From contig JAVZXS010000003.1 in assembly GCA_038886535.1 (NCBI GenBank), positions 15,080 to 79,079 of the forward strand: DNA of 64,000 nucleotides. Direction: 5' to 3'. This DNA is from Candidatus Micrarchaeia archaeon (GTDB lineage Archaea > Micrarchaeota > Micrarchaeia > CABMEP01). The position numbers and the translations under genes are program-made. This document shows positions 60-63,483 of this stretch, one piece after another (within the stretch, counting starts at the first letter, position 1; the number at the start of each line of letters is the position of its first letter). The notes beneath the pieces are model-generated. The model was not told the origin of the DNA. It saw only the letters and a program-made list of their open reading frames with translations, and did no database searches.

Positions 60-506
60 ATGAGAGGAAATATAGAGCAATTCAAGGAATCTTTGCTTAA
101 TGCAGAAGGAATCATAATAATAGATAAGGTTACGGGCCTTTCAAGCGAAAAAGCAAGATACGTTTATGCATGCGGAGCAGGTCTTGCAGGAAGCTGGGGC
201 AAGATCGGGAAGGACATATCCAATCTATACACATTTGTAATAGACGGAGAGGAATGCACATACAGCAGTCCTAGAATAATAAACAACGAACTCTCTCATG
301 AGTCTACAGCCACAAACACTAACGAATGCATTAAGAAGATAAAAGAGATGCAGAAGAATCCACTTTATGTGACATTTGAAATCAATTATGGTCCACTATA
401 TTCAATTTATGAGACACATGCAGCCTATCTGTTCGTGAACGAAGACTTTGTTGAAGAATGCTCTTTCAGGACTTCAGAAACAGTGCCTACAATCACTGGA
501 CAGTAA
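60..506 (+). CDS. hypothetical protein; the frame stays open back to position 3, so the true start may lie upstream of the window
   Basis: 148-aa ORF with no motif I recognise; in-frame codons 3-59 contain no stop. Confidence 0.4.
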   Translation: MRGNIEQFKESLLNAEGIIIIDKVTGLSSEKARYVYACGAGLAGSWGKIGKDISNLYTFVIDGEECTYSSPRIINNELSHESTATNTNECIKKIKEMQKNPLYVTFEINYGPLYSIYETHAAYLFVNEDFVEECSFRTSETVPTITGQ

Positions 507-554: not shown

Positions 555-3305
555 TCATTTGTATCTAAGCAATCCGCCTATTCCTTTGAATCCTGCTAAA
601 AACTGCTTTCCTTCCGGACTGTCTTCAGGAATCAATTCCACTTCTATTCCATGCTTCTCCGCTTTCTCATAAGCTTCATCAAACAACTCTTCCTTGCTTA
701 TTATGTTCTTAATCTTGCTTCCATTGCTGCACCTGAGTTCTCTTTCTTCTTTTTCTTCTATTTCGCCGTCTATAAATATTTCTTCTTGTCCTGAATCGCA
801 TTCTACGATAAGATGGGTAATATCTAATCCTTCAGAAAGCAACAAAGTTCCTAATTTACCAGAGTTCATTGCTTCTATTGTTTCTTTAGGCCCATAAACT
901 GCAAGACCGCCCTTTGCAACTTCTCCGAAAAATCTTTCAAGAAGCTGCCTTTGCTTCTTTGCCTTCTCCTCAGAAATCAAATCAACTGCTTTTCGTGCAA
1001 GCTCTTGAATCCCATAATCGTCAACATAACCAGTATCAAGGACAGCTAAGATCTGAAATTGATAATTGAAAGGTTTCATTTTCAAAAAGTTTTCTTTCAC
1101 AGGCCCAGGTCCGCCCACTATAACTTTCTTAATTCCAGATGGTATAAGCGTTTCATTCATTGCATCTCCAACTCTCCTATAATAATCTTCTACAAGCTCT
1201 TCCACAAAACGTTGATACCTGGCCGCACTGTTGTGAACTATTATTCCATTGACTACAAAATTTTCAGTCTCGGGTACTGAAAGATCATAAAAATATTCAT
1301 TTGGGTTTTGTATTTTTTCTATCCTAATAATTTTTGGATACACAGCTTCATATTCTAGAGTTCTTTTTAAATATTCTAATATTGCAATGCCATGTTGATA
1401 TACTTTTTCATCTTGATTTTGTTTATATTTCATTTCTTTTTTTATCGCATTTTCAAAATAAGGTAAAACTTTTTCCATAAATACTTTTCGAGACATTCGT
1501 TTTTTATCTGCAAAAAACATGTTAATATTTGGGAAGTCTCTTGTGTTTAGACCTAATTCTCTGGCCAAAGCAATTACTTCTTTTCCGCTTACAGATATCT
1601 GTCGTATATTATCAGCTCTTTTTTTCGTTATTCTATTACATTTCTCATCTTTAGAGATAGAGGAGAATCCGATTCTATTTTTAAATATATTTATTGAATC
1701 TAAGTCATTTATTTCTAGGAACCAAACTCCAATCTGATCTGTTTTTTTCCAATACACCGAACTTATTATTCCAAATCTAAGGAGCGCATATCTTAACTTT
1801 TCAATTATATTTCTACTTCGCATTCCTATTCCTATCCTGTTTGTGACAAATCCTTCAGCGTCAAAAAGTCCGCTAATAAATGCAGCTAATAGATTATCAG
1901 GCAATTTTATGATGTCATTAGGTATATCCCGTAAATTACTTTTTGCTATTAATTCAGGATATTTATTCTCAATTTCGTCACTTAGCCATTTGCTGTATAT
2001 TCTTAACTCGTATAAATTTTTCTTTTTGCATTTTCTAATCTTAGTTTTCAATCCAAACTCAATTTCACATATTTTAGAATAAATTTCCAGATTTTCTTTA
2101 TCTCGATCATATAAAATTATTCGGTTATTATCTTTTGTTCCATCTCCAGCTATGTATCCAAAAAGTCGACAAATTCCTTCTGTATAATAAGATGGAATAG
2201 CAATTATCTTATCTTTTGGAATTAATTTTGTATCGAGCTTATAATATTCAAGAATCTTAGGTAAGATCTTGCTATCTTCCATCTTTCGTTTTCCAAGTTC
2301 TAAGCTTGATATTGTTGTTTGACTAATTCCTAAATCATCTGCCACTCTTTTCTGAGTTAGATTAAGTTCTTTTCTTCTTTGTCTTAGAATTTCTCTTAAT
2401 TTGCTATCTAATTTGTAAACTTCTTTTATTTCAAGCGGTAACTCTGTTTCTTTTCCTTTTATTTCAAAATTAGATATGTGAATAAGTCTATCTCCGACTT
2501 TTAATTCATCTACATATTTTTCCCTGATAGAATTCTCAGTTTCTTTCACAAAGAACAAGTGTTCAGGAGTTGCTATTATTTCTGTTCTAGGATGTTTCGT
2601 AATTATTTTATATGCAATATTAGTTTTTCTTTTCATAACTCTATTGCAAGTTGAGAATTTATATCTTTGTTGAGTAAAATCATAACTAAGCACTCTGTCG
2701 CCTTCTCTTACTTGTGATATTGGTATGATCATTCCATTTTCTAACTGAACCATTCCATCTTCTCTTATGCATGATCCACCTTTTGTTGACTTACTAGGTC
2801 CGGTTGTAGTAAGTCGTTTTAATATCTTTGTAACATTTCCTTCAAGCACTCCAATTGTTGCTTCCTTTCCATCTATTGTAATCAATCCATACTTTTCCTT
2901 AACTTTACCCTGTTCTGCAAGTGGCTCTAAAATAAATTCAGAATCGCATCTGTAAATACTCACCTGAATAGGAAGCGGCGGCTCAATAGAAAAGAGCTGT
3001 ATGTCTGTTTTTCCTGGATCCTTTGATATATTCCCACAGAATATTGCCAATCCTTTGTCTGGGGTTTTCCTAAAGAACTTAAGATAATTGATTATCTTGT
3101 CGATTGCATCTTGGACGTTTGTTCTTGTTGTTTTTGATTTAATGTTTCCTGCCTGCCCATGCTCAGATCGTAATTTATTAACTACCTCAGTTAATGGATA
3201 TCCAGCAGGAACATATAGACTTATTAGCTCTGTTCCACTGCCTCTTATCTTTCCAAGCTTGTTTAGCAGTTTCATTAATTCTCTTTTTTTCTTATCCGCA
3301 GCCAT
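555..3305 (-). CDS. prf1: peptide chain release factor aRF1 interrupted by a 514-aa intein (exteins 178 + 224 aa = 402 aa)
   Basis: NIKS motif (AGNIKSK), YxCxxxF (YRCDSEF), catalytic-loop context STKGGS...SAARYQRF, and a typical aRF1 C-terminal domain. The extein total of about 400 aa fits aRF1. Confidence 0.9.
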   Translation of the reverse strand: MAADKKKRELMKLLNKLGKIRGSGTELISLYVPAGYPLTEVVNKLRSEHGQAGNIKSKTTRTNVQDAIDKIINYLKFFRKTPDKGLAIFCGNISKDPGKTDIQLFSIEPPLPIQVSIYRCDSEFILEPLAEQGKVKEKYGLITIDGKEATIGVLEGNVTKILKRLTTTGPSKSTKGGSCIREDGMVQLENGMIIPISQVREGDRVLSYDFTQQRYKFSTCNRVMKRKTNIAYKIITKHPRTEIIATPEHLFFVKETENSIREKYVDELKVGDRLIHISNFEIKGKETELPLEIKEVYKLDSKLREILRQRRKELNLTQKRVADDLGISQTTISSLELGKRKMEDSKILPKILEYYKLDTKLIPKDKIIAIPSYYTEGICRLFGYIAGDGTKDNNRIILYDRDKENLEIYSKICEIEFGLKTKIRKCKKKNLYELRIYSKWLSDEIENKYPELIAKSNLRDIPNDIIKLPDNLLAAFISGLFDAEGFVTNRIGIGMRSRNIIEKLRYALLRFGIISSVYWKKTDQIGVWFLEINDLDSINIFKNRIGFSSISKDEKCNRITKKRADNIRQISVSGKEVIALARELGLNTRDFPNINMFFADKKRMSRKVFMEKVLPYFENAIKKEMKYKQNQDEKVYQHGIAILEYLKRTLEYEAVYPKIIRIEKIQNPNEYFYDLSVPETENFVVNGIIVHNSAARYQRFVEELVEDYYRRVGDAMNETLIPSGIKKVIVGGPGPVKENFLKMKPFNYQFQILAVLDTGYVDDYGIQELARKAVDLISEEKAKKQRQLLERFFGEVAKGGLAVYGPKETIEAMNSGKLGTLLLSEGLDITHLIVECDSGQEEIFIDGEIEEKEERELRCSNGSKIKNIISKEELFDEAYEKAEKHGIEVELIPEDSPEGKQFLAGFKGIGGLLRYK
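1230..2771 (-). mobile_element. intein (Hint domain + XRE-like HTH + LAGLIDADG homing-endonuclease domain) inside aRF1
   Basis: Starts at Cys179 (CIREDG, TGC at 2771-2769) and has block B ATPEHLF. LAGLIDADG motifs are LFGYIAGDGT and AFISGLFDAEGFV. It ends NGIIVHN (Asn692 at 1232-1230) followed by Ser693 (AGT at 1229-1227). Confidence 0.85.
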
Positions 3306-3439: not shown

Positions 3440-4744
3440 CTAAATTTTCTTTACAGGCTCGATTCTTTCCTTTCCAAAATAAGGAACAACTGCCTTTGGA
3501 ATGATTATAGAACCATCTCTATCCTGGTGGTTTTCCATTATTGCAACTATCGCCCTTGGTGTTGCAATTGCAGTACTATTTAGAGTGTGAACATATTCTT
3601 TTCCTTCAGCTCCAACCTTTCCATATCTAATATTCAATCTTATGGCTTGGTAAGATGTGCAGTTGCTGCATGAGATCATTTCTCTGTAGGTATTCTGTGC
3701 AGGCATCCATGCCTCAAGATCATATTTCTTTGCAGCTACAATTCCAATCTCACCAGTACATATGTTGACTATTCTGTAAGGAACCTCAATCTTTTGGAAT
3801 ATCTCTTCAGCATTTCTTATTAACTCTTCATGAATATTCCAAGAATCCTCAGGTTTGCAAAAGACAAACTGTTCTATCTTGTTGAATTGATGCACTCTAA
3901 ATATTCCTTTCGTGTCTTTTCCATGCGCCCCAGCTTCTTTTCTAAAACATGCACTAATTCCAACATACTTAAGCGGCAACCTTTCTTCTTCAATTATTTC
4001 ATTCATATGCATTGCCGCTATTGGATGTTCAGAAGTAGAAATTAGATAGAGGTCTTCTCCTTCTATCTTGTAAAGAGCTTCCTCGAAAGTGCCAAGGTCA
4101 GTTACGCCTTCATAAGGCTTTCTCTTAAGCATGAAAGGCGGATAAATAGGAGTGAAGCCTTTCTTGACCATAAGGTCCATTACCATTCTTTGTAATGCCA
4201 TATCTAAGAGCACAAGGTCATTCTTTAGATAATAAAATCTGGCTCCCGAAACCTCTGCAGCTTTTTCTATATTTGCTCCGTCTATAACTGGCAATAGATC
4301 AACATGGCTTTTTAATTCAAACCCATAGTCTTCTTTTGTTTTTGGCTTGCCCCATGTTCTTACAACCTGATTATCATTTTCATCTTTTCCAAAAGGAACA
4401 GACTCATGCAATATATTTGGAAGGCGCATCAAATAAAATCGTACCTTTTCTTGCAGCTCTTCCATTTTTGCTTCTGCTTGCTTTATTTTTTCAGGAATTT
4501 CAGATGCTTTTTTCTTATATTCTTCAGCTTTTGCTTTATCTCCTTTTTTCATTGCGTCTGCGATCTGTCTTGTTACTTGGTTTCTTTCAGATCTAAGTTT
4601 TTCAACCTCTGCAAGTAATTCCCTATATTGTTTATCTTTTTCTATCAGATCTTCAAGCCACTGGATCTTTTCTAGATCTTGTCTTTTTTCAAGATCTGCT
4701 CTTACAATTTCAGGATTCTTTCTTATAAGTTTGATATCTAGCAT
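3440..4744 (-). CDS. serS: seryl-tRNA synthetase
   Basis: N-terminal coiled-coil arm (MLDIKLIRKNPE...), class II motif 2 (FRKEAGAHGKDTKGIFRVHQF) and motif 3 (LNSTAIATPRAIVAIMENHQ). The ATG at 4744 is preferred over the GTG at 4753. Confidence 0.9.
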   Translation of the reverse strand: MLDIKLIRKNPEIVRADLEKRQDLEKIQWLEDLIEKDKQYRELLAEVEKLRSERNQVTRQIADAMKKGDKAKAEEYKKKASEIPEKIKQAEAKMEELQEKVRFYLMRLPNILHESVPFGKDENDNQVVRTWGKPKTKEDYGFELKSHVDLLPVIDGANIEKAAEVSGARFYYLKNDLVLLDMALQRMVMDLMVKKGFTPIYPPFMLKRKPYEGVTDLGTFEEALYKIEGEDLYLISTSEHPIAAMHMNEIIEEERLPLKYVGISACFRKEAGAHGKDTKGIFRVHQFNKIEQFVFCKPEDSWNIHEELIRNAEEIFQKIEVPYRIVNICTGEIGIVAAKKYDLEAWMPAQNTYREMISCSNCTSYQAIRLNIRYGKVGAEGKEYVHTLNSTAIATPRAIVAIMENHQDRDGSIIIPKAVVPYFGKERIEPVKKI

Positions 4745-5041
4745 ACATGACACCTTTATTCTTATTATTGTTAAAACACTCTCTAAATGTTATTAGAATC
4801 TAAGTTTTTTTAACCTTTGTGAGCTAAGACCCAATTACATGCTTGCGGTTTTTCTGTATTTTAATAAAGATAATTAATTAGTATTAATTTATTTTTAAAT
4901 TGCTATATTCACTTCAATCATGGAAAAGATGTACTCATTTACTTTATTATCTATTTTTGCATCATTATTTCTAATGTAATGTCATCCATATAAAAATAAA
5001 ATGGATTAAGTTAGCTTATTTTATAGTTTTTATCTCATTGT

Positions 5042-18836: not shown

Positions 18837-20351
18837 ATGTCAGAAGAAATTAAAGACAAAAAAGAAATAGATGAAATAAAAAATACAAGTGAGATGAAGG
18901 AAACAAAGGAAATTAGATCAAGAAATCCAAGATCTATGATCAAGGAAGATAAATTTGATCTAAAGGGAAAAAGAGTAATAGTTCCAGATACTTCAGTCAT
19001 AATCGATGGGAGACTGAGCGAGATTCTTAAGGAAAAGAATATTCAGCAGATTAGAGTAGTTATACACAAGGCTTCAGTGGGTGAGCTCGAACACCAGGCA
19101 AATTCTGGAAAAGAAATAGGTTTCAGTGGACTTGCTGAGATAAAGCTTCTTAGGGAGTTTTCTCAATCAGGTCAGATTGAACTTGAATTCGGTGGGGAAA
19201 GAAGCACGGAACTTATGGTAAAGGCAGCAAAACTTGGAGAGGTTGATGCGGCAATAAGAGAACTTGCGAAACAACTCAATGCAATGCTCATCACTTCAGA
19301 TAAAGTGCAATCTGAGGTTGCAAGAGCTGAAGGGATAGACGTAATATATCTTGAGCCAAGAAAATATCTGAGAGAACTTTCTTTTAAACAGTACTTAACT
19401 CCAGATACAATTTCTTTGCATTTCAAAGAGGACACAGTTCCTCTTGCAAAAAGAGGCAAGCCAGGCAATATTCAATTAGTTCAAGTGAGAAACGAACCCA
19501 TAACTAAAGAAGAATTAGAGATAATGATAAAAGAAATAATTGATACAGCTAGATCTGATAGTAAATCATATTTTGAACTTGATGCAAAAGGAGCAGCAGT
19601 TATTCAGTTAAGAGAGTTTAGGATTGCAATAGCAAGACAGCCATTCTCTGATGGAATTGAAATAACAATAGTCAGACCTATTATGAAAGCATCATTTGAT
19701 GATTACGCGCTTTCAGATAAATTAAGAAAAAGACTTCTTGAGAGAGCAGAAGGAATAATAATATGTGGTTCACCTGGAAGCGGTAAATCAACATTTGCAG
19801 CCGCATTGGCTGAGATGTATATGAAGAATAAAAAAATAGTTAAAACACTAGAATCTCCAAGAGATTTGCAAGTTCCAGATGAAGTTACGCAATATGCAGC
19901 ATTAGATGGTAGTTTTGAGAAAACAGGAGACATTCTTCTTCTTGTAAGACCAGATTATAGTATATACGATGAAATGAGAAAGACAACAGACTTTAAAGTA
20001 TTTGCAGATTTACGTCTTGCAGGTATTGGTATGGTGGGGGTAGTTCATGCAACAAGGCCGATCGAGGCAATTCAGAGATTTATAGGGAGAGTAGATTTAG
20101 GAATGATACCTCAGATTGTAGATACTGTAATCTTCATAAAAGACGGCAAAATCAAAAAAGTTCTTGAATTGAAGATGAAAGTTAAGATTCCATATGGGAT
20201 GAGAGATAGGGATCTTGCAAGACCTGTAGTTCAAGTAAGCGATTTTGAAACTGGAAAGGTGGAATGGGAAATTTATAAATTTGGAGATGAAACAGTAAGT
20301 ATACAAATAGAATCAGAAGATAAGTGGGAAAAACGTAATAGAAAGAGATAA
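18837..20351 (+). CDS. PIN domain / PilT-like ATPase / KH-domain protein (COG1855-type archaeal ATPase)
   Basis: VIVPDTSVIIDGRL (PIN), GSPGSGKST Walker A and a C-terminal KH-like region; SD AAAGGTGA upstream. Confidence 0.7.
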   Translation: MSEEIKDKKEIDEIKNTSEMKETKEIRSRNPRSMIKEDKFDLKGKRVIVPDTSVIIDGRLSEILKEKNIQQIRVVIHKASVGELEHQANSGKEIGFSGLAEIKLLREFSQSGQIELEFGGERSTELMVKAAKLGEVDAAIRELAKQLNAMLITSDKVQSEVARAEGIDVIYLEPRKYLRELSFKQYLTPDTISLHFKEDTVPLAKRGKPGNIQLVQVRNEPITKEELEIMIKEIIDTARSDSKSYFELDAKGAAVIQLREFRIAIARQPFSDGIEITIVRPIMKASFDDYALSDKLRKRLLERAEGIIICGSPGSGKSTFAAALAEMYMKNKKIVKTLESPRDLQVPDEVTQYAALDGSFEKTGDILLLVRPDYSIYDEMRKTTDFKVFADLRLAGIGMVGVVHATRPIEAIQRFIGRVDLGMIPQIVDTVIFIKDGKIKKVLELKMKVKIPYGMRDRDLARPVVQVSDFETGKVEWEIYKFGDETVSIQIESEDKWEKRNRKR

Positions 20352-27199: not shown

Positions 27200-27321
27200 G
27201 CGGAGATCGCATAACCTGGTAGTGCGCAAGCCTGGAAACATTTCATCAGGCAATATAATTGTATTTGCCAGGAAGCTTGTGGTCCGAAAGGGCCTTGTGG
27301 GTTCAAATCCCACTCTCCGCG
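27200..27321 (+). tRNA. tRNA-Ser(GGA), class II, with a 36-nt intron at canonical position 37/38 (27238-27273)
   Basis: Acceptor GCGGAGA/TCTCCGC with discriminator G. D stem GCAT/GTGC. Anticodon stem CAAGC/GCTTG with loop CTGGAA|A. Long variable arm GGTCCGAAAGGGCC. T arm GTGGG-TTCAAAT-CCCAC. Intron CCAGG pairs with exon CCTGG. Confidence 0.85.
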
Positions 27322-46527: not shown

Positions 46528-49428
46528 TTAGCTGCATCCGCTTGTTGCGCCGCAATTAAGGCACTTGTAGCATGCACCATTTCTTACCATTATTGCCCCG
46601 CAGTAAGAGCAAGCTGGTGCATCTTCTGAGTTTTGGAATGCAACCTTACTGTTTTTCTTTTCAGTTGCAATAGCAACGGCAGGAGCCGCAACCGGTTTTG
46701 TTTCAACTAACTTCTCAGCAGCTCTTGCAGCATCGCTGCTTATTGTCTGCGTTGAATTCCCAGGTGGGGAACCTATTGCACTGTTTTCAGCAGGCACCTG
46801 ATTTACAGCTTCTACTGTTTCAGGAATCTCTTCCTCTTTCATATAGGAGGTTATAGGACCTTCGGCTTCAAGATTTAATCCAACCTCTATCTGCTCCTCC
46901 CTGCTTAGGAATTTCAAAGCCATCCATCTGAATATGTAATCCATTAATGATTTAGCAAATCTTATGTTTGGATGAGAGGTGTATCCAGATGGTTCGAATC
47001 TCATGTGGACGAATTTCTTAACCAAGGTCTTCAAAGGAACTCCATACTGGAGAGCAATTGATATGGATGTTGCAAAAGCATCCATCAATCCAGAGATGGT
47101 ACTTCCTTCCTTGGACATGGTGATGAATATCTCTCCAGGTTGCCCATTTTCATACAGTCCCACAGTTATATATCCTTCATGCCCAGATATACTGAACTTA
47201 TGGGTAATTGATCTCCTCTCGTCAGGAAGTTTTCTCCTGGTGGGTCGGTTTACCACCACTTCCTTCACAACTTCTTTTACAACCTCTTTAACTTCAACCT
47301 TGGCCGCCTCGATCTTATCTACCTCCTTCACCTCTTTGGTGAGCGTGATAGGCTGGACTCCTTTTGACCCATCTCTATATATTGCAATTGCCTTGAGTCC
47401 AAGCTCCCATGAAGTCATATATGCATTATAGATGTCTTCCACTGTTGATTCCTTAGGCATATTAACCGTTTTCGAAATAGCACCCGATATAAATGGCTGG
47501 ACAGCAGCCATCATTTTGATATGGCCAAGGTAATGAATGAATCGTTTGCCATTTGCAGGCTTGAATGCGCAATCGAATACAGGTAGATGCTCTTCCTTCA
47601 GGTGTGGTGCACCTTCTATAGTTTCTTTATCATCTATGTATTGCATTATTTCATTTATCTGTTGTTCTGTGTATCCTAATCTCTTAAGTGCGATAGGAAC
47701 CGTTGAGTTTACTATCTTCATCATTCCCCCGCCAACTAGCCATTTGTATTTAATTAATGCAATATCCGGTTCTATTCCTGTTGTATCACAATCCATCAGG
47801 AATCCTATCGTGCCTGTAGGTGCAAGGGCAGATATCTGTGCATTTCTATATCCATACATAGAACCAGATGCAAACGCATGTCTCCATGCTTCAATCGCAG
47901 CGTTCCTTAAATAGTGAGGTGCTTTATCACTTATGGATTCAGCTTGATCAAGATGCATCTTTATTACTTCTAACATTGATTCCTTGTTCATTTCGTATTT
48001 GTTGAATGACCCCATTCTCTTTGCAAGCATAGCTGATATATAATAGCCATAACCTGTCATCAACGCACTTACTGCAGCTGCATATGCTCTTCCTTCATCA
48101 CTATCATATGGAAGTCCGCATGCCATAAGCAGAGCCCCCAGATTTGCATAGCCCAAACCAAGAGGTCTAAAGTCGATAGAATTCCTTTCAATTTCAGGTG
48201 TAGGATAGGCTGCATTACCTACTATGATTTCTTGTGCAGTTATCATTATTGCAACTGTATGCTTGAATTTTTCAGTGTCAAATCTTCCGGTTTCTGGATC
48301 AAGATATTTCAGTAGATTTATTGATGCCAAGTTGCATGCAGAGTTGTCAAGAAACATATATTCGCTGCATGGATTGGATGCATTTATCCTACCGCTTGCC
48401 TTGCAGGTATGCCACTTGTTGATAGTAGTATCAAATTGTATGCCCGGATCTCCACATTCCCATGTTGCTTCTGCAATCTCTTTCATTATAGTTCGTGCAT
48501 CTAATTTTTCACATTCTTTTCCAGTTGTCACATATTTTGTTGAGTATTCTTTTCCTTCTTTTACTGCTTGCATGAATTCATCTGTTACTCGTACAGAATT
48601 ATTAGCGTTCTGGAAAAAGATATTAGAATATACTTCTCCATCAAGAGAACCATCATAACCCAACTTTATTAGATCTTTTGCCTTTCTTTCCTCCTTTGCC
48701 TTGCACCAGATAAATTCTCTTATGTCTGGATGATCTACATTTAATATAACCATCTTAGCAGCTCTTCTTGTCTTTCCTCCAGATTTTATTACTCCTGCAA
48801 ATGCATCATATCCTTTCATAAACGATACAGGGCCAGATGCCTTTCCACCACTCGACAAATGTTCTTTTGATGATCTAAGCACAGAGAGATTAACTCCAGC
48901 ACCAGATCCATACTTAAACAACATTCCTTCAGTTACTGCGAGCTGGAGGATAGATCTCATGTCGTCCTCTACAGAATTGATAAAACACGCCGACCCCTGA
49001 GGTCTCTTCTCAACCCCGAAATTAAACCACACAGGACTGTTAAATGCTGCGTATTGATTTACAAGTATGTATGTTAATTCATCACTAAATATTTTTGCCT
49101 CATCAGCAGAAGCAAAATATCCATCCTTCTTTCCCCATTCTGTTATTGTTCTTACCACTCTGTCTACCATCTGTTTAACGCTTGTCTCTCTTTCAGGAGT
49201 GCCCAATTTTCCTCTAAAGTATTTAGAAGCAGCGATATTGGTTGCAGATTGAGACCACGTAGCTGGAACCTCTACATCTTTTTGTTCGAATATTTTCTTT
49301 CCATTCGCATCCATGATTACTGAATCTCTTTTCTCCCACATTATCATGTCATATGGATGTACTCCTTCTTTAGTGAAAACCCTTTGTATCTTATATTCTG
49401 GAAGCTCTATATCTTTCTTTGCCATCAT
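46528..49428 (-). CDS. nrdJ: class II (adenosylcobalamin-dependent) ribonucleotide reductase NrdJ
   Basis: TNIAASKYFRG, NPCSEYMFLDNSACNLASINL and a C-terminal Cys-rich tail CSYCG...CYKCLNCG. ATG at 49428/49425 follows GGGGTG; the longer ORF start at 49473 is less likely. Confidence 0.9.
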   Translation of the reverse strand: MMAKKDIELPEYKIQRVFTKEGVHPYDMIMWEKRDSVIMDANGKKIFEQKDVEVPATWSQSATNIAASKYFRGKLGTPERETSVKQMVDRVVRTITEWGKKDGYFASADEAKIFSDELTYILVNQYAAFNSPVWFNFGVEKRPQGSACFINSVEDDMRSILQLAVTEGMLFKYGSGAGVNLSVLRSSKEHLSSGGKASGPVSFMKGYDAFAGVIKSGGKTRRAAKMVILNVDHPDIREFIWCKAKEERKAKDLIKLGYDGSLDGEVYSNIFFQNANNSVRVTDEFMQAVKEGKEYSTKYVTTGKECEKLDARTIMKEIAEATWECGDPGIQFDTTINKWHTCKASGRINASNPCSEYMFLDNSACNLASINLLKYLDPETGRFDTEKFKHTVAIMITAQEIIVGNAAYPTPEIERNSIDFRPLGLGYANLGALLMACGLPYDSDEGRAYAAAVSALMTGYGYYISAMLAKRMGSFNKYEMNKESMLEVIKMHLDQAESISDKAPHYLRNAAIEAWRHAFASGSMYGYRNAQISALAPTGTIGFLMDCDTTGIEPDIALIKYKWLVGGGMMKIVNSTVPIALKRLGYTEQQINEIMQYIDDKETIEGAPHLKEEHLPVFDCAFKPANGKRFIHYLGHIKMMAAVQPFISGAISKTVNMPKESTVEDIYNAYMTSWELGLKAIAIYRDGSKGVQPITLTKEVKEVDKIEAAKVEVKEVVKEVVKEVVVNRPTRRKLPDERRSITHKFSISGHEGYITVGLYENGQPGEIFITMSKEGSTISGLMDAFATSISIALQYGVPLKTLVKKFVHMRFEPSGYTSHPNIRFAKSLMDYIFRWMALKFLSREEQIEVGLNLEAEGPITSYMKEEEIPETVEAVNQVPAENSAIGSPPGNSTQTISSDAARAAEKLVETKPVAAPAVAIATEKKNSKVAFQNSEDAPACSYCGAIMVRNGACYKCLNCGATSGCS

Positions 49429-49539
49429 TACACCCCATCTTTTCATTTTTAGTGATTTATACCATCTGCCCAACTATATTTCTTATAATTTAAATGTTGA
49501 TTACTAGAATACCACCTTATTCAACTTTTAATTTTTTGA

Positions 49540-59705: not shown

Positions 59706-61295
59706 ATGGCAAACGAAAACATATCAAATGGTCATGTTGAAGATAAAGGTGATTCAGAGGTTAAATTTTCATCTAGTGTAGATGAAAAGAAAAAGGCAAT
59801 CCAAAACAAAGTAAAAGAGAAATATCAACCAAAAATAGATATGCTTACTACTGGAAAGGAAAAAGTGCAAAGATATGCAGAATCCCAAAGAAAAACAAAA
59901 ATAGAGAATATTACTAAAGATTATAAATCAAAAATTAGTTCTATTGAAGAGAAATATAAAAAAGCGGAGATGGAGCTTGACTCTTCAAAAGAGAATAAAA
60001 TTAAAGAGATAATTAATTCTATAGATTCATTTTCTCTGTCTGAAGATGAAAAAAAGAAAATAGAAGAGGCTCTGAACATTTCTTTTGAAAATGTAATCAA
60101 AGAAAAGAAAAAAGCAGAGATGACAAAAGAAAAAGAAAGAGAAAAAGAGTTAGTAGAAAAAGAATATGAAGAATCTAAAAACAAAATTGAATATGAACAT
60201 CTCTCATTTATTAATAAGTACAATTCAATTTTTGATGATAGAATAAATAGGATAAAAGAAGAAATGAATAATAGAATAGATGAAATAGATTCTGATGTTT
60301 CAGAAGCAGATGTATCAATTACAAAATTTGAAAGCGAATCCAATAGTAAAGTAGAAGAAAAGGTTGGAAATTCAGAAAATGGAAATGTTCAAAATATAAA
60401 CGAAGAAGTAAAAACAGATACGAAAGGAACTAATGTAGATCTAATAAGAAGGGATCTTATAAAACTAGTTGGAATAATAAGCATTCCACTTATCGGAATT
60501 AGTAGCGCATTGCTAATACCTGAAATAAAGAGAATTAATTCTATTAAACAGGAAACACGACAGGAAACACCTGTCAGGGTTAATAAGCCAATTTCTGATT
60601 CAAAGATACTAAATAACAAGAATTCAACAATATATGTACAGACTTTACCAATAAAGATAGAACCTGGAGATATTTCAGTATCTACTCCACCAATTAAATC
60701 TAATGAACCAACCGTTTCTAAATCAACATCTACTAAACCTGAAAATATTCCAGTATCTACAACACCCGTAGGCACTATTCAACCAAAAACTAAAGATAAA
60801 TCAGTTAAACCAACAATAAGATCTAAGAAACAGATTAATCCTAAAAATAACGAAATAATTAAGAAGTCAAATACTGCAAAGGCAGACCTTCCTTCACTAC
60901 TTCTTGAATTTAAGAGATCAATTATACAATTAAAAGAAAAAGCAGAAGAGCTTAAATATGATGGAATTCCAATAGCTAAAGGCTCTTCAAAATCACAAAT
61001 ATTGAAATTCATCAAAAAGATTGAAGAAATGGATAAAAATGGTAAACTTTCTATAGAACAAAAAAGAAAACTCACCGTGCTTTTAAGAGAAATGGCAAAG
61101 AGCCTTGACATGTATGTAAGGAAAGAACAAGTCATAATTTCAACCATACCTGATGATATAATAGAGATAAAGCGTGATGTAGTAAAATACATAAAATGGT
61201 TATTGTCACAGAACATAAATCCAGATGCAATAGAATATGTAATAAAACAATGGGAAAAATCTATAGGTCCCAAGCATTTGAAAGCAGTTCAATGA
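59706..61295 (+). CDS. hypothetical coiled-coil / single-TM / Pro-Thr-Ser linker protein
   Basis: About 240 aa of Lys/Glu heptad-like sequence, TM LVGIISIPLIGISSALLIP, a P/T/S-rich linker and a helical C-terminal domain. Confidence 0.55.
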   Translation: MANENISNGHVEDKGDSEVKFSSSVDEKKKAIQNKVKEKYQPKIDMLTTGKEKVQRYAESQRKTKIENITKDYKSKISSIEEKYKKAEMELDSSKENKIKEIINSIDSFSLSEDEKKKIEEALNISFENVIKEKKKAEMTKEKEREKELVEKEYEESKNKIEYEHLSFINKYNSIFDDRINRIKEEMNNRIDEIDSDVSEADVSITKFESESNSKVEEKVGNSENGNVQNINEEVKTDTKGTNVDLIRRDLIKLVGIISIPLIGISSALLIPEIKRINSIKQETRQETPVRVNKPISDSKILNNKNSTIYVQTLPIKIEPGDISVSTPPIKSNEPTVSKSTSTKPENIPVSTTPVGTIQPKTKDKSVKPTIRSKKQINPKNNEIIKKSNTAKADLPSLLLEFKRSIIQLKEKAEELKYDGIPIAKGSSKSQILKFIKKIEEMDKNGKLSIEQKRKLTVLLREMAKSLDMYVRKEQVIISTIPDDIIEIKRDVVKYIKWLLSQNINPDAIEYVIKQWEKSIGPKHLKAVQ

Positions 61296-61308: not shown

Positions 61309-63483
61309 ATGGATAAAATAAAAATAGATGCCAAATCATTAGATGAATTCAAAAGAGATGCATTTAGAAGGAGGATTATTGCAGCTTGTTTGGCAGAAGA
61401 ATACTCAACAAAAACATCTGAAATTAAAAAGAAAATTGAGACTATTGAAATGAACACAGACTTAATAATTAGCTCACTTAAAAAAAGTAGAGAATATTAT
61501 AAAGAATATATTACAAAGCTAGGTCAATTTAAAATAGAAAGTACAAATAAAGAGAGAGCTAATGAAATTGAAAAATATCTAAAAATATTTGAAGAGAATC
61601 ATAAAAAGATTGATAAAGAATATGAAAAGCAAGTAAAGCAGTTAGATGAATTGCTTAAAAATAAACTAAAAGAAATTGAAGAAAAATATGAGTATTATTC
61701 ATATGTTTTAGATCCAATGAATAATCCTTCTTATTATCTCTTAGAGACTATAAGAGAGAAAGGTATTGATACGTCGTTTATTACAGGAAATAAAGATATA
61801 GATATGGAACTTGGAAATAAGTTATATGAATATAATAAAAAAATAAAAGAATACGAATCTCAGAGAGATAAAGAGAAGGAAACCGTTATTAACGATTTTA
61901 TTAAGGCAAAGAGTGACTTAGAGATTAGGTTTAAAGAATTTAGAAAAAAAGTCGAAGAAAAGGAAAAACAAATTATCGAAAAAATAAATGAGAATTATGA
62001 TAAAAAGATAAAAGAAATCGAATCCGAGACGATTAATTCAATAAACTCAAAAATACAAAGTATAGACATTACCATCGCATTAATCGAAAATAAGAAAGAA
62101 TCAACCATTTCAAAATTTGATTCTGAAATAATTACATTAAAAAACGAATTCAAAGCAAAAATCGAATCCTTAATGCAACCACTATCTCCAATACCTGACG
62201 AATTGCTTTCAAAGTATATTTATTGTAAGATTGAAATAAAGAAACCAGAAATCATTGAACAAAAGGCGGAGGAAGTAAAAGAAGAAAAGAAAGATACTGT
62301 AGAAAATAAAGATGAAGCAAAAGATTTAGAAGATACAAAGAATGCAGCAAGTCAGTTACAGCCTGTCATAACATCTGAAACTAAGGCATTATATTGGAAT
62401 GCTAATAAAGAAAAAAGTAAGAAATTTATGGAGAAGCTTAATGCTTTTTGCAGATATGTGAGAACTGCATTTTATGCAACTGCTTTAAGCTCACTCTTCC
62501 TATTGGTTCTTAAGGATACATTAAATACTCCAACAAGTCTTATTAGTAACAAATCAATTAAAGATATAACTTCTATTTCAGATACTGCTAAGTCAATTGG
62601 AAAAGAGATTAAAAAGAATGAAGATAGAAAAGGAACAAAAGATGAAATAACAGAAGGATCAAGAGAAAAGAAAAGTAATGTATTAAATCAAGAGATTTCA
62701 GTTTCTAATAAAGACGTAAACGAAAAAGATAAAATTGATGAAGAAAAACACTTTGAAAAAATGTTTATTAGCATAGATAAAGAATTAGATGAATATAATG
62801 CAGCAAGGCTTAATTTTGAAACTCAACTTGAATTATTTGAGTTATATGTAAAAGAAATCAAGCCTTCATTTGGTGAAGTGATAGGTGTTTCAAAGGGGAG
62901 AAAAGTTATTGCTAATGAGCTGCTTCAAAAGCTAAAAAGATTAGGATATGGTCTTTCAAAGGAAAAAATGAATTTAATTGCAGACGCTCTTAAAAATGCT
63001 AGGCTATACAACATTTCGGAATTAAGGAAATATATAGATCAGATAATAAGTATGGATGAGGATCAACTTTTTGGAGTAGATCCAACTGGAAAAATAGTTC
63101 CAATACTACCACCTCCTAAGATAATTCATAACCCAAAACAAGATTCTAATCCAATAATTAGGAAAGAAAAGGACACAATTAAGGTCAATCCATCTTCAGA
63201 TACTATAAGCTTAAATATTATTGATTCAGAAAATATTCCTAACGGTTCAGGTGAAAATACGGTAAATGAAGAAAATGTCAATACTATTAATCCAATAAGC
63301 GAGGACCCTAAATCATATATTGAAGAAAAAAACATGGATGATCAAGTTGTAAATCAAGTTGTAAAATATGAAGAATTAATTGATGCTATAATAATTTGTG
63401 AAAATAAAGCTATGTTTATAAAAGTACCAAAAGGATACAATATAAAAGATAACGATCCTTATATTTGCAATACTGAATATTAA
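61309..63483 (+). CDS. hypothetical coiled-coil / single-TM protein
   Basis: About 390 aa of Lys/Glu coiled-coil-like sequence, TM FYATALSSLFLLVL and a C-terminal region with helical and Asn-rich segments. Confidence 0.55.
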   Translation: MDKIKIDAKSLDEFKRDAFRRRIIAACLAEEYSTKTSEIKKKIETIEMNTDLIISSLKKSREYYKEYITKLGQFKIESTNKERANEIEKYLKIFEENHKKIDKEYEKQVKQLDELLKNKLKEIEEKYEYYSYVLDPMNNPSYYLLETIREKGIDTSFITGNKDIDMELGNKLYEYNKKIKEYESQRDKEKETVINDFIKAKSDLEIRFKEFRKKVEEKEKQIIEKINENYDKKIKEIESETINSINSKIQSIDITIALIENKKESTISKFDSEIITLKNEFKAKIESLMQPLSPIPDELLSKYIYCKIEIKKPEIIEQKAEEVKEEKKDTVENKDEAKDLEDTKNAASQLQPVITSETKALYWNANKEKSKKFMEKLNAFCRYVRTAFYATALSSLFLLVLKDTLNTPTSLISNKSIKDITSISDTAKSIGKEIKKNEDRKGTKDEITEGSREKKSNVLNQEISVSNKDVNEKDKIDEEKHFEKMFISIDKELDEYNAARLNFETQLELFELYVKEIKPSFGEVIGVSKGRKVIANELLQKLKRLGYGLSKEKMNLIADALKNARLYNISELRKYIDQIISMDEDQLFGVDPTGKIVPILPPPKIIHNPKQDSNPIIRKEKDTIKVNPSSDTISLNIIDSENIPNGSGENTVNEENVNTINPISEDPKSYIEEKNMDDQVVNQVVKYEELIDAIIICENKAMFIKVPKGYNIKDNDPYICNTEY

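What the first reader, a model, noticed from the sequence alone, without database searches (positions are those of the whole stretch)
1227..2783. aRF1 carries an intein exactly in the GGQ peptidyl-tRNA hydrolysis loop, and the loop reads GGS rather than GGQ
Reading the minus strand from 3305, the N-extein ends ...SKSTKGGS. The codons are Gly176 GGT, Gly177 GGA and Ser178 TCA (2774-2772). Cys179 (TGC, 2771-2769) opens a Hint domain, which closes ...NGIIVHN (Asn692, 1232-1230) followed by Ser693. Removing residues 179-692 gives KGGS-SAARYQRF. This aligns without gaps to the class I release-factor loop as I recall it, (R/K)GGQSxxRFxR. The NIKS and YxCxxxF motifs show this is a genuine aRF1 and not Pelota. 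The intein therefore sits in the catalytic loop, a typical intein homing position. I do not recall aRF1 being listed as an intein host. The Gln of GGQ, regarded as universally conserved in RF1/RF2/eRF1/aRF1, is Ser at the -1 position of the splice junction. Possible explanations are a tolerated GGS variant, a second canonical aRF1 elsewhere in the genome, or a base-call error.
Basis: partly seen in the sequence, partly recalled or inferred. Interest (0 to 1): 0.8.

Follow-up and report, generated by a model that had tools for sequence, protein, structure and literature searches.

The report
Intein-split release factor lacking catalytic glutamine
An archaeal translation-termination factor gene is interrupted by a self-splicing intein exactly at its catalytic loop, and across this lineage the glutamine of the "universally conserved" GGQ motif is naturally replaced by serine, which specialists would find surprising.

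Summary
ORF 555-3305(-) encodes a 916-aa aRF1 precursor. A 514-aa class-1 intein (Cys179...His-Asn692/Ser693; XRE helix-turn-helix plus LAGLIDADG endonuclease) sits directly after Gly-Gly-Ser178.

GGS is neither a base-call error nor a product of the intein:
- The identical protein occurs on four contigs; the two shown come from two MAGs.
- A ~90%-identical sister genome carries an intein-free allele at the same SerRS-aRF1 locus, and it also reads KGGSSAARY.
- 38 distinct Micrarchaeota aRF1 sequences, in two clades with 99-100% bootstrap support, read GGS.
- Five Ser codons from both codon families encode this serine.
- The GGS loop is the most conserved segment of the protein.
- NIKS and YxCxxxF are intact, and all three stop codons are used.
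- No second Micrarchaeota-type aRF1 appeared in the five GGS species genomes scanned.

The most likely reading is a functional orthologous release factor that hydrolyses peptidyl-tRNA without the Gln side chain.

The intein belongs to a widespread family specific to this aRF1 site (59 of 273 sampled sequences). Other DPANN aRF1s read GGW (Aenigmarchaeota-like, 113 of 118 hits), GGM, GGF or GGA. I found no paper describing any of this. Whole-genome absence of a GGQ paralogue, and release activity itself, remain untested.

The parts
555..3305 (-). Complete 916-aa aRF1 precursor ORF (stop codon at 555-557)
   Evidence: ORF list; Pfam eRF1_1/2/3 plus intein domains
2772..3305 (-). N-extein, residues 1-178 (aRF1 domain 1 and the first part of domain 2), ending ...SKSTKGGS
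   Evidence: It is 100% collinear with the intein-free allele in L001.
2772..2780 (-). Gly176-Gly177-Ser178 (GGT GGA TCA): the GGQ-equivalent catalytic loop tip, with Ser in place of Gln; Ser178 is the intein -1 residue
   Evidence: ungapped alignment to GGQ of 4AF1 and 3J5Y; Ser codons TCA, TCC, TCG, AGC and AGT in relatives
1230..2771 (-). 514-aa class-1 intein (Cys179 to Asn692)
   Evidence: Pfam Intein_splicing 92.5 bits and Hint. It is absent precisely between Ser178 and Ser179 of the intein-free allele. GC is 28.9% against 37-39% in the exteins.
2733..2771 (-). Intein block A (CIREDGMVQLENG), with the Cys1 nucleophile
   Evidence: conserved C-[ILV]-x-x-[DN] start in 59 homologous inteins
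2547..2570 (-). Intein block B (TPEHLFFV; the TxxH motif)
   Evidence: read directly from the sequence
2226..2393 (-). XRE-type helix-turn-helix domain inside the intein (precursor residues 305-360)
   Evidence: Pfam HTH_19 at 44-45 bits and HTH_3 at 41-42 bits
2136..2165 (-). LAGLIDADG motif 1 (LFGYIAGDGT; acidic Asp retained)
   Evidence: Pfam LAGLIDADG_3, two stretches, 77.6 bits
1848..1880 (-). LAGLIDADG motif 2 (FISGLFDAEGF; acidic Glu retained)
1227..1295 (-). Intein blocks F and G (YFYDLSVPETENFVV-NGIIVHN) plus the +1 nucleophile Ser693
   Evidence...VHN|S conserved across the aRF1 intein family
558..1229 (-). C-extein, residues 693-916 (SAARYQRF...; the rest of domain 2 and domain 3)
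3135..3146 (-). NIKS stop-codon recognition motif
   Evidence: invariant across the GGS clade
2934..2954 (-). YxCxxxF motif (YRCDSEF)
   Evidence: Y118, C120, D121, S122 and F124 are invariant across the GGS clade
3440..4753 (-). Seryl-tRNA synthetase gene directly upstream on the same strand. It is the conserved syntenic partner that marks this as the orthologous aRF1 locus.
   Evidence: Neighbour annotation. SerRS ends 30-150 nt before aRF1 in GGS loci and in many GGQ Micrarchaeota loci.

Best explanation
This is the orthologous, and probably only, class-I release factor gene of a Micrarchaeia (DPANN) archaeon. It is interrupted by a mobile class-1 intein at the catalytic loop.

Inferred sequence of events:
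1. The 916-aa precursor cannot act in the peptidyl-transferase centre, because 514 residues sit at the tip of the loop.
2. The intein excises itself by standard chemistry: Cys179 N-S acyl shift, transesterification to Ser693, Asn692 cyclisation, then an O-N shift.
3. This joins Ser178 to Ser693 and yields a 402-aa aRF1 reading KGGS-SAARYQRF.
4. The freed intein carries a LAGLIDADG endonuclease and an HTH domain, and can home into intein-free alleles at the GGS-coding site.

The mature factor keeps NIKS and YxCxxxF and recognises all three stop codons. It places a Gly-Gly-Ser loop in the peptidyl-transferase centre.

Hydrolysis is inferred to proceed as in canonical factors, through the Gly-Gly backbone conformation and the main-chain amide of the third residue. 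The small Ser side chain would replace the water-packing role of the methylated Gln.

Ser is a fixed, selected state in this lineage and does not depend on the intein.

Shown: gene structure, junctions, the GGS state, its conservation, orthologous position and distribution. Inferred: splicing, endonuclease activity, release activity and the catalytic mechanism.
For: - Gene structure and junctions.
- aRF1 identity of the spliced product: TIGR03676 at 410 bits against a cutoff of 235. The AF2 model (mean pLDDT 79) has its best structural matches in aRF1 4AF1 (E 1e-39, TM 0.71) and ribosome-accommodated eRF1 (TM 0.73-0.76), well ahead of Pelota and Balon.
- Ser178 aligns ungapped with Gln of GGQ.
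- Not an error: the exact protein is on four contigs, of which the two shown come from two MAGs.
- Not due to the intein: the intein-free allele in the ~90%-identical sister genome (L001/L005), at the same locus, reads GGSSAARY with a TCC codon.
- Lineage-wide: 37 of 273 sampled aRF1 sequences read GGS. With the Q/S column masked they form two clades, with bootstrap 99 (30 sequences, including the window) and 100 (8 sequences).
- Selection for Ser: the codons are TCA, TCC, TCG, AGC and AGT, while the nearest GGQ relatives use CAA or CAG.
- Functional constraint: between the window and L001, 90 codons differ synonymously and 13 non-synonymously. The loop window 170-184 is the most conserved of 388 windows in the GGS set, with the NIKS window second.
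- Orthology: the SerRS-aRF1 pair is shared by GGS and GGQ Micrarchaeota loci.
- Copy number: in a scan of GTDB species genomes, the 5 GGS assemblies each have one locus among the best 80. Of the 79 assemblies represented, 78 have a single locus.
- Standard termination is needed: window genes use TAA 36, TGA 9 and TAG 5 times, with 87% coding density under the standard code.
- Mechanistic plausibility from the literature: the Gln main-chain amide is the catalytic group, Q-to-P abolishes release, and the side chain packs and selects water (PMC4691834; PMC6742477).
- The intein belongs to a homologous family at exactly this site in 59 of 273 sampled aRF1 sequences. In a separate search, 52 of 56 intein homologues sit in eRF1-domain proteins.
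Against: - No closed genome of a GGS organism could be scanned.
- The GTDB scan used two Micrarchaeota-derived peptide patterns and kept only the best 80 of 555 relatives (lowest identity about 43%). A divergent second aRF1 or another peptidyl-tRNA hydrolase could have been missed.
- As I recall the genetics, which I could not check in papers held here, Gln substitutions in yeast eRF1 and E. coli RF1/RF2 are deleterious in vivo. Full function of GGS would therefore be unexpected.
- No biochemical data exist. Splicing with Ser at -1, endonuclease activity and release activity are all inferred.
- All sequences are from metagenome-assembled genomes.
Confidence: 0.7

Rival explanations
1. Specialised paralogue. 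The organism has a canonical GGQ aRF1 elsewhere in its genome. The GGS protein would then be a diverged copy with another role, such as A-site binding for rescue or hibernation without hydrolysis, as in Pelota or Balon.
For: - Relatives of aRF1 without a catalytic Gln exist and bind the A site. Pelota and Balon appear as weaker sequence and structure matches.
- One Micrarchaeota assembly (CAZFUA01) has two aRF1 loci.
- The genome scan was pattern-limited and truncated at 80 loci.
Against: - The GGS gene sits in the conserved SerRS-aRF1 position that the single GGQ aRF1 occupies in other Micrarchaeota.
- It keeps NIKS and YxCxxxF, and its loop is the most conserved segment.
- It scores 410 bits on the aRF1 equivalog model, against 50 bits for Pelota (cutoff 178) and 39 bits for Balon-type RHF (cutoff 320).
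- None of the 5 GGS assemblies shows a second locus.
- There is no second copy in the 64-kb window.
- Three GGQ-type 'Micrarchaeia archaeon' proteins that I traced come from samples other than the four GGS assemblies.
Confidence: 0.12
2. Impaired but tolerated factor. GGS aRF1 is the only release factor but is catalytically slow or less selective for water. A slow-growing, host-dependent DPANN cell would tolerate this. Ser would then be a drift-fixed, slightly deleterious state rather than an equivalent solution.
For: - DPANN lineages show several different residues at this position (S, W, M, F, A), which suggests relaxed requirements rather than one optimised solution.
- The literature assigns the Gln side chain a role in packing and selecting water (PMC4691834).
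Against: - Ser is invariant in 38 of 38 clade members although the codon family switches between TCN and AGY. This indicates selection for Ser specifically, not drift.
- The surrounding loop is under the strongest constraint in the protein.
Confidence: 0.12
3. Intein-driven origin. The Q-to-S change (and W/M/F elsewhere) was selected because of the intein that targets this codon. The change would either improve splicing through a better -1 residue or alter the homing-endonuclease target.
For: - The intein family inserts exactly after this residue in 59 of 273 sampled aRF1 sequences. Non-Q alleles carry it at least as often as GGQ alleles: 17 of 61 against 42 of 204.
- The eight codons just upstream of the insertion site all differ synonymously between the intein-containing and intein-free alleles (permutation P = 0.004).
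Against: - Most GGS sequences (33 of 37) are intein-free.
- Most intein-bearing alleles keep GGQ.
- The counts are not phylogenetically independent, and cluster representatives favour long (intein-bearing) sequences.
- No test of splicing or cleavage was possible.
Confidence: 0.1
4. Artefact. This could be a base-call or assembly error at 2772-2774, or mis-set intein junctions that hide a Gln.
For: None found.
Against: - An identical protein occurs in independent assemblies.
- An intein-free allele has the contiguous sequence GGS-SAARY.
- 38 distinct GGS sequences exist, with five different Ser codons.
- No Gln lies within reach of either junction.
Confidence: 0.01

Closest known systems
Canonical archaeal and eukaryotic class-I release factors aRF1/eRF1 (e.g. 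Halobacterium salinarum aRF1 PDB 4AF1; human eRF1 1DT9, 5LZU)
   Same: - Three-domain architecture, with NIKS and YxCxxxF decoding motifs.
- A Gly-Gly loop followed by S-x-x-R-[FY] and a long helix.
- An end-to-end equivalog HMM match and the best structural matches.
- The same SerRS-linked locus as GGQ aRF1 of other Micrarchaeota.
   Different: - The third residue of the catalytic motif is Ser, not the Gln described as universally conserved and N5-methylated in all three domains (PMC7708063 abstract; PMC4691834).
- The gene is split by an intein at that residue.
Engineered Gln substitutions in RF1, RF2 and eRF1 (Shaw & Green 2007; Santos et al. 2013; Frolova 1999; Seit-Nebi 2001), as summarised in PMC4691834
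   Same: The same position is changed. The published interpretation is that the main-chain amide catalyses and the side chain packs and selects water, so non-Pro substitutions can retain release activity in vitro. This gives a rationale for a working GGS.
   Different: Those are laboratory mutants, reported (from my memory of the genetics) as deleterious in vivo. Here the substitution is natural, fixed and conserved in whole lineages. The primary papers were not available to read.
Pelota/Dom34 and bacterial Balon (Rv2629/MSMEG_1130 hibernation factors): aeRF1-fold proteins without GGQ
   Same: They share the superfamily fold and lack the catalytic Gln.
   Different: - They lack NIKS and YxCxxxF and have no Gly-Gly loop.
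- The window protein scores far below their family cutoffs: 50 against 178 bits, and 39 against 320 bits.
- It scores far above the aRF1 cutoff.
The GGQ-site intein of other DPANN aRF1 genes (e.g. P0056 GGQ|C...HN|SARRY; P0121/P0391, annotated by JGI as 'eRF1/intein/homing endonuclease')
   Same: - The same insertion point.
- The same Cys1 / TxxH / HN / Ser+1 chemistry.
- A homologous Hint domain, LAGLIDADG domain and (in many members) HTH domain.
- 53% identity over the full length to P0121.
   Different: The window allele has Ser at -1 where most family members have Gln. The closest known copy is only 53% identical.
Classical LAGLIDADG-containing class-1 inteins in catalytic sites of essential proteins (e.g. 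PI-SceI in VMA1; archaeal polymerase, RNR and IF2 inteins)
   Same: Insertion at the most conserved, catalytic codons of an essential gene, with a bipartite Hint domain enclosing a two-motif LAGLIDADG endonuclease.
   Different: The host protein (aRF1) is not one I found in any paper. There is also an extra XRE-type HTH domain between the N-terminal Hint lobe and the endonuclease.

Membership tests
aRF1/eRF1 class-I release factor (TIGR03676) | Curated equivalog HMM matched end to end above the cutoff | tested here: met
   410.4 bits against a cutoff of 234.7; residues 7-402 match model positions 2-402 of 403
aRF1/eRF1 class-I release factor (TIGR03676) | Three domains eRF1_1, eRF1_2 and eRF1_3, and the eRF1 fold | tested here: met
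   Pfam hits for all three domains. The AF2 model's best matches are 4AF1 (E 1e-39, TM 0.71) and accommodated eRF1.
aRF1/eRF1 class-I release factor (TIGR03676) | NIKS and YxCxxxF stop-codon recognition motifs in domain 1 | tested here: met
   NIKS at residues 54-57 and YRCDSEF at 118-124; invariant in the GGS clade
aRF1/eRF1 class-I release factor (TIGR03676) | GGQ motif: Gly-Gly-Gln at the tip of domain 2 | tested here: not met
   The motif reads Gly-Gly-Ser, and Ser178 aligns ungapped to Gln of 4AF1 and 3J5Y. I therefore file this as the aRF1 orthologue with a variant catalytic motif, not as a canonical member.
aRF1/eRF1 class-I release factor (TIGR03676) | Single-copy orthologue in the conserved genomic position | tested here: met
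   SerRS-aRF1 synteny is shared with GGQ Micrarchaeota. There is one locus per GGS assembly among the best 80 GTDB loci. The scan was truncated, so this is not proof.
aRF1/eRF1 class-I release factor (TIGR03676) | Stop-codon-dependent peptidyl-tRNA hydrolysis on the ribosome | not testable with these tools
   Needs an in vitro release assay or genetic complementation.
Pelota/Dom34 (TIGR00111) | Equivalog HMM above the cutoff, with no NIKS or GG loop | tested here: not met
   49.9 bits against a cutoff of 177.65; NIKS and the Gly-Gly loop are present
Balon-type ribosome hibernation factors (NF052289, NF052288) | Equivalog HMM above the cutoff | tested here: not met
   38.8 bits against 320, and 20.3 bits against 480
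Class-1 intein | Cys/Ser at position 1, TxxH in block B, terminal His-Asn, and Ser/Thr/Cys at +1 | tested here: met
   Cys179, TPEH at residues 246-249, His691-Asn692 and Ser693; Pfam Intein_splicing 92.5 bits
Class-1 intein | In-frame insertion whose removal restores a contiguous host protein | tested here: met
   The intein-free allele L001 is collinear across the junction, and the 402-aa product is 97% identical to P0001.
Class-1 intein | Protein splicing actually occurs | not testable with these tools
   Needs expression and mass spectrometry.
LAGLIDADG homing endonuclease (two-motif) | Two LAGLIDADG motifs with the catalytic acidic residue retained | tested here: met
   LFGYIAGDGT and FISGLFDAEGF; LAGLIDADG_3 in two stretches, 77.6 bits. 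Cleavage activity was not testable.

The most novel reading that the evidence does not exclude
In several DPANN lineages the sole class-I release factor has lost the "universally conserved" catalytic glutamine. These are two Micrarchaeota clades with GGS, a large Aenigmarchaeota-like clade with GGW, and scattered GGM, GGF and GGA lineages.

If so, cellular translation termination does not need the Gln side chain or its N5-methylation. The recurrent loss may be linked to an intein family that homes into exactly this codon.
Probability: 0.55. Interest if true: 0.9.

Novelty: new variant of a known kind. Interest (0 to 1): 0.8.

Why it matters
[quoted passage not shown] The role of the Gln side chain has been argued for 25 years from mutants and structures: catalysis, or packing and selection of water.

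Natural, conserved GGS factors (and GGW, GGM, GGF) in otherwise intact orthologues offer ready-made test cases.
- If they are the only release factors in these cells, the side chain is dispensable in vivo.
- Mtq2-Trm112 would then lose its release-factor substrate in these lineages.
- Annotation and completeness rules that treat GGQ as diagnostic would need revising.

The intein at the same codon adds a second point. The precursor must splice before it can terminate translation, so expression of the cell's release factor depends on a mobile element.

Tried and rejected
- **Base-call or assembly error.** Rejected.
- **Alternative intein junctions that would restore a Gln.** Rejected, because the intein-free allele reads GGS-SAARY contiguously.
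- **A second aRF1 or a second copy of the intein in the window.** tblastn found none. Other large ORFs, including the class II RNR, carry no intein.
- **Recoded genetic code as an explanation.** Rejected. All three stop codons are used, and coding density is 87% under the standard code.
- **Literature.**
  - Searches for natural GGQ variants and for aRF1/eRF1 inteins returned nothing relevant.
  - The 'GGS' hits were only DOIs of the journal Genes & Genetic Systems.
  - Shaw & Green 2007 and Seit-Nebi 2001 are not held. Statements about which substitutions retain activity therefore rest on the secondary summary in PMC4691834.
- **Taxon names for the GGW, GGM and GGF representatives.** The listing of cluster members gave none. 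A homologue search with P0137 did give names.
- **Automated extraction of insertions from the hmmalign output.**
  - The first parse of intein inserts used the wrong column and found none. This was corrected.
  - hmmalign also misplaced the second insertion site of five sequences. This was resolved by BLAST and motif search.
- **First bootstrap run.** It used an off-by-one motif index and was redone.
- **Tracing GGQ-type 'Micrarchaeia archaeon' proteins to the window's assemblies.** All three came from samples other than the four GGS assemblies, which is only weak negative evidence.
- **Mtq2/Trm112 presence or absence.** Not testable without whole genomes.


Full report
**1. The observation**

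The minus-strand ORF 555..3305 encodes 916 aa.

Pfam finds eRF1_1, eRF1_2 and eRF1_3 interrupted by Intein_splicing/Hint, two LAGLIDADG_3 stretches and an XRE-type HTH. The intein has the full class-1 set of motifs:
- Cys1, in block A (CIREDG...).
- TPEH, the TxxH motif of block B.
- Blocks F and G, ending ...NGIIVHN.
- Ser at +1.
- Two LAGLIDADG motifs (LFGYIAGDGT and FISGLFDAEGF), both with the acidic residue retained.

Its DNA is more AT-rich than the exteins: 28.9% GC against 37-39%.

**2. Identity of the host protein**

Removing residues 179-692 leaves 402 aa. This product matches the NCBIfam aRF1/eRF1 equivalog model end to end at 410 bits, against a cutoff of 235. It scores only 50 bits on Pelota and 39 bits on Balon-type factors.

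phmmer against PDB sequences aligns ...PSKSTKGGSSAARYQRF without a gap to ...PGKQRKGGQSAQRFARL of H. salinarum aRF1 (4AF1) and to the human eRF1 loop. Ser178 therefore occupies the Gln position.

An AlphaFold2 model built from a 34-sequence alignment has mean pLDDT 79. It places the loop just before the long domain-2 helix. Its best structural matches are 4AF1 (E 1e-39, TM 0.71) and ribosome-accommodated eRF1 (TM 0.73-0.76), ahead of Pelota and Balon.

**3. GGS is real, and it is not caused by the intein**

- The exact 916-aa protein is on four public contigs. The two shown are from NCBI MAGs GCA_038885895.1 and GCA_038885315.1. All have the same TCA codon.
- The best database hit (P0001, 97% identical, 'Candidatus Micrarchaeia archaeon') is 402 aa and intein-free, and it reads KGGSSAARYQRF.
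- Its locus (L001, in GCA_038882495.1) is syntenic with the window at 88-91% nucleotide identity. It lacks exactly the 1542 intein bases.
- Between these two alleles, 90 extein codons differ synonymously and only 13 non-synonymously.

**4. Distribution of GGS**

I aligned 273 aRF1 sequences to a profile with inteins removed: two database searches plus the window. The loop reads GGQ in 204, GGS in 37, GGW in 11, GGM in 6, GGF in 5 and GGA in 2.

With the Q/S column masked, a bootstrapped NJ tree of Micrarchaeota sequences places all 38 distinct GGS sequences in two clades. One has 30 sequences including the window (bootstrap 99). The other has 8 sequences (bootstrap 100). Their mutual relationship is unresolved, so there were one or two Q-to-S events.

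Relatives with the same PSKTxK...SAARY context but with GGQ also exist (P0074, L024, L037 and others). They look like the ancestral state.

The Ser is encoded by TCA, TCC, TCG, AGC and AGT in different members, whereas GGQ relatives use CAA or CAG. A switch between the TCN and AGY codon families while Ser is preserved argues for selection on Ser itself.

In the GGS set, the 15-residue window 170-184 (GPSKSTKGGSSAARY) is the most conserved of 388 windows. The NIKS window is second.

**5. Orthologue or paralogue?**

- No second aRF1-like sequence exists in the 64-kb window.
- I scanned one genome per GTDB species with patterns taken from the GGS-clade alignment. The scan found 555 relatives, and the best 80 are all labelled as DPANN or unclassified archaea, mostly Micrarchaeota.
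- Five of the assemblies carry GGS (L005, L033, L006, L007, L020), and each has a single locus.
- Of the 79 assemblies represented, 78 have a single locus.
- SerRS lies directly upstream on the same strand in GGS loci (L001, L005, L007, L033). The same holds in many GGQ Micrarchaeota loci, including L036, L041, L053, L058-L061, L066, L072-L076, L079 and L084 (also L089 and L090). The GGS gene therefore occupies the orthologous position.
- Three further GGQ-type proteins labelled 'Micrarchaeia archaeon' trace to samples other than the four GGS assemblies.

Limits: the scan was pattern-based and truncated, and no closed GGS genome was available. A divergent second factor is therefore not excluded.

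**6. Need for normal termination**

Fifty non-overlapping ORFs cover 87% of the window under the standard code. They end in TAA (36), TGA (9) and TAG (5). NIKS and YxCxxxF are invariant in the clade.

**7. Mechanism (inferred)**

The published structural and biochemical consensus, as summarised in PMC4691834 and PMC6742477, has four parts:
- The two glycines adopt a backbone conformation that no other residue can reach.
- The main-chain amide of the Gln residue is the catalytic group.
- Q-to-P abolishes release.
- The side chain mainly packs the pocket and selects water.

A Gly-Gly-Ser loop keeps everything except the side chain. I therefore propose that spliced GGS aRF1 releases peptides by the canonical route, without the packing contribution of Gln and without N5-methylation.

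The precursor cannot do this, because the intein sits at the loop tip. Splicing is therefore obligatory for function.

**8. The intein family**

Of the 273 sequences, 59 carry an insertion at exactly GGX|C...HN|S. By loop type these are 42 GGQ, 6 GGW, 4 GGS, 4 GGM and 3 GGF.

All are homologous to the window's intein. They range from 130-160-aa mini-inteins (P0011, P0025, P0056) to 420-580-aa forms with an endonuclease. The closest copy is P0121/P0391, at 53% identity.

A database search with the intein alone gave 56 hits, and 52 of them lie in eRF1-domain proteins. The few that carry source names are labelled Woesearchaeota, Nanoarchaeota/Nanoarchaeia or Diapherotrites. JGI's pipeline already labels some as 'eRF1/intein/homing endonuclease'. 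aRF1 is thus a frequent intein host in DPANN data, although I found no paper saying so.

Codons 171-178 all differ synonymously between the intein-containing and intein-free alleles. This is eight codons in a row, ending at the insertion site. It is the longest such run in the gene (permutation P = 0.004). Either target-site immunity or co-conversion would explain it.

**9. Beyond the finding**

A search with the GGW protein P0137 returned 118 close homologues. Of these, 113 read GGW. The few with source names are labelled mostly Aenigmarchaeota or Nanoarchaeota. NIKS and YxCxxxF are intact, and some lie on contigs of 0.5-0.7 Mb.

GGM, GGF and GGA occur in further places in the tree. I did not test whether those genomes have a second aRF1.

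**10. Novelty**

The papers held here describe GGQ as universally conserved (PMC7708063 abstract; PMC4691834). Searches combining GGQ with DPANN, Micrarchaeota or GGS found no report of natural variants.

I rate the finding as a new variant of a known kind. It is an orthologous aRF1 that departs from the family's defining catalytic motif, and it carries a new member of a known kind of mobile element.

Noticed in passing
Related proteins P0137, P0142, P0151-P0156, P0193, P0220, P0225, P0253, P0258 (GGW); P0140, P0143, P0145, P0153, P0246, P0256 (GGM); P0133, P0180, P0208 (GGF); P0243, P0200 (GGA): Other aRF1 lineages also lack the Gln. 24 of the 150 nearest 50%-identity cluster representatives are non-Q. 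113 of 118 close homologues of P0137 read GGW; the few with source names are mostly labelled Aenigmarchaeota or Nanoarchaeota. NIKS and YxCxxxF are intact in these.
   Followed up: partly
Related proteins P0202, P0217, P0224 (one intein) and P0222, P0235 (two inteins): aRF1 has a second intein insertion site, ...VHN|CDDHF. The Cys of the YxCxxxF stop-codon recognition motif serves as the +1 nucleophile. P0222 and P0235 carry inteins at both this site and the GGQ site.
   Followed up: partly
window 2772-2795 (codons 171-178), compared with L001 10511-10534: Eight consecutive codons, ending exactly at the intein insertion site, all differ synonymously between the intein-containing and intein-free alleles. 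This is the longest such run in the gene (permutation P = 0.004). Homing-endonuclease target immunity or co-conversion would explain it.
   Followed up: partly
window 1230-2771: The intein is markedly more AT-rich than its host gene: GC 28.9% against 37-39%, and GC3 0.195 against 0.28-0.31. It carries an XRE-type HTH domain that many, but not all, members of the aRF1 intein family share.
   Followed up: partly
window 27200-27321 (+): Rfam finds a 122-nt tRNA that default ARAGORN missed. In intron mode ARAGORN calls an intron-containing tRNA here. Its anticodon assignment (Pro-GGG, with a long extra arm) looks unreliable.
   Followed up: partly
window 18837-20351 (+): A 504-aa ORF combines an N-terminal PIN nuclease domain with an nSTAND3 NTPase. 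This looks like a possible conflict or defence protein.
   Followed up: no
window 46528-49473 (-): A class II (B12-dependent) ribonucleotide reductase with a TSCPD domain. RNR is a classic intein host, but this copy is intein-free.
   Followed up: no
window 59706-61295 and 61309-63483 (+): Two adjacent large ORFs (529 and 724 aa) have no Pfam match at E <= 1e-5.
   Followed up: no
L057 and L078 (assembly CAZFUA01, isolate SRP271791_co2_54): This is the only Micrarchaeota assembly among the 79 with two aRF1 loci. Both are GGQ, at 46% and 44% identity to the query. It could be a true paralogue pair or a mixed bin.
   Followed up: no
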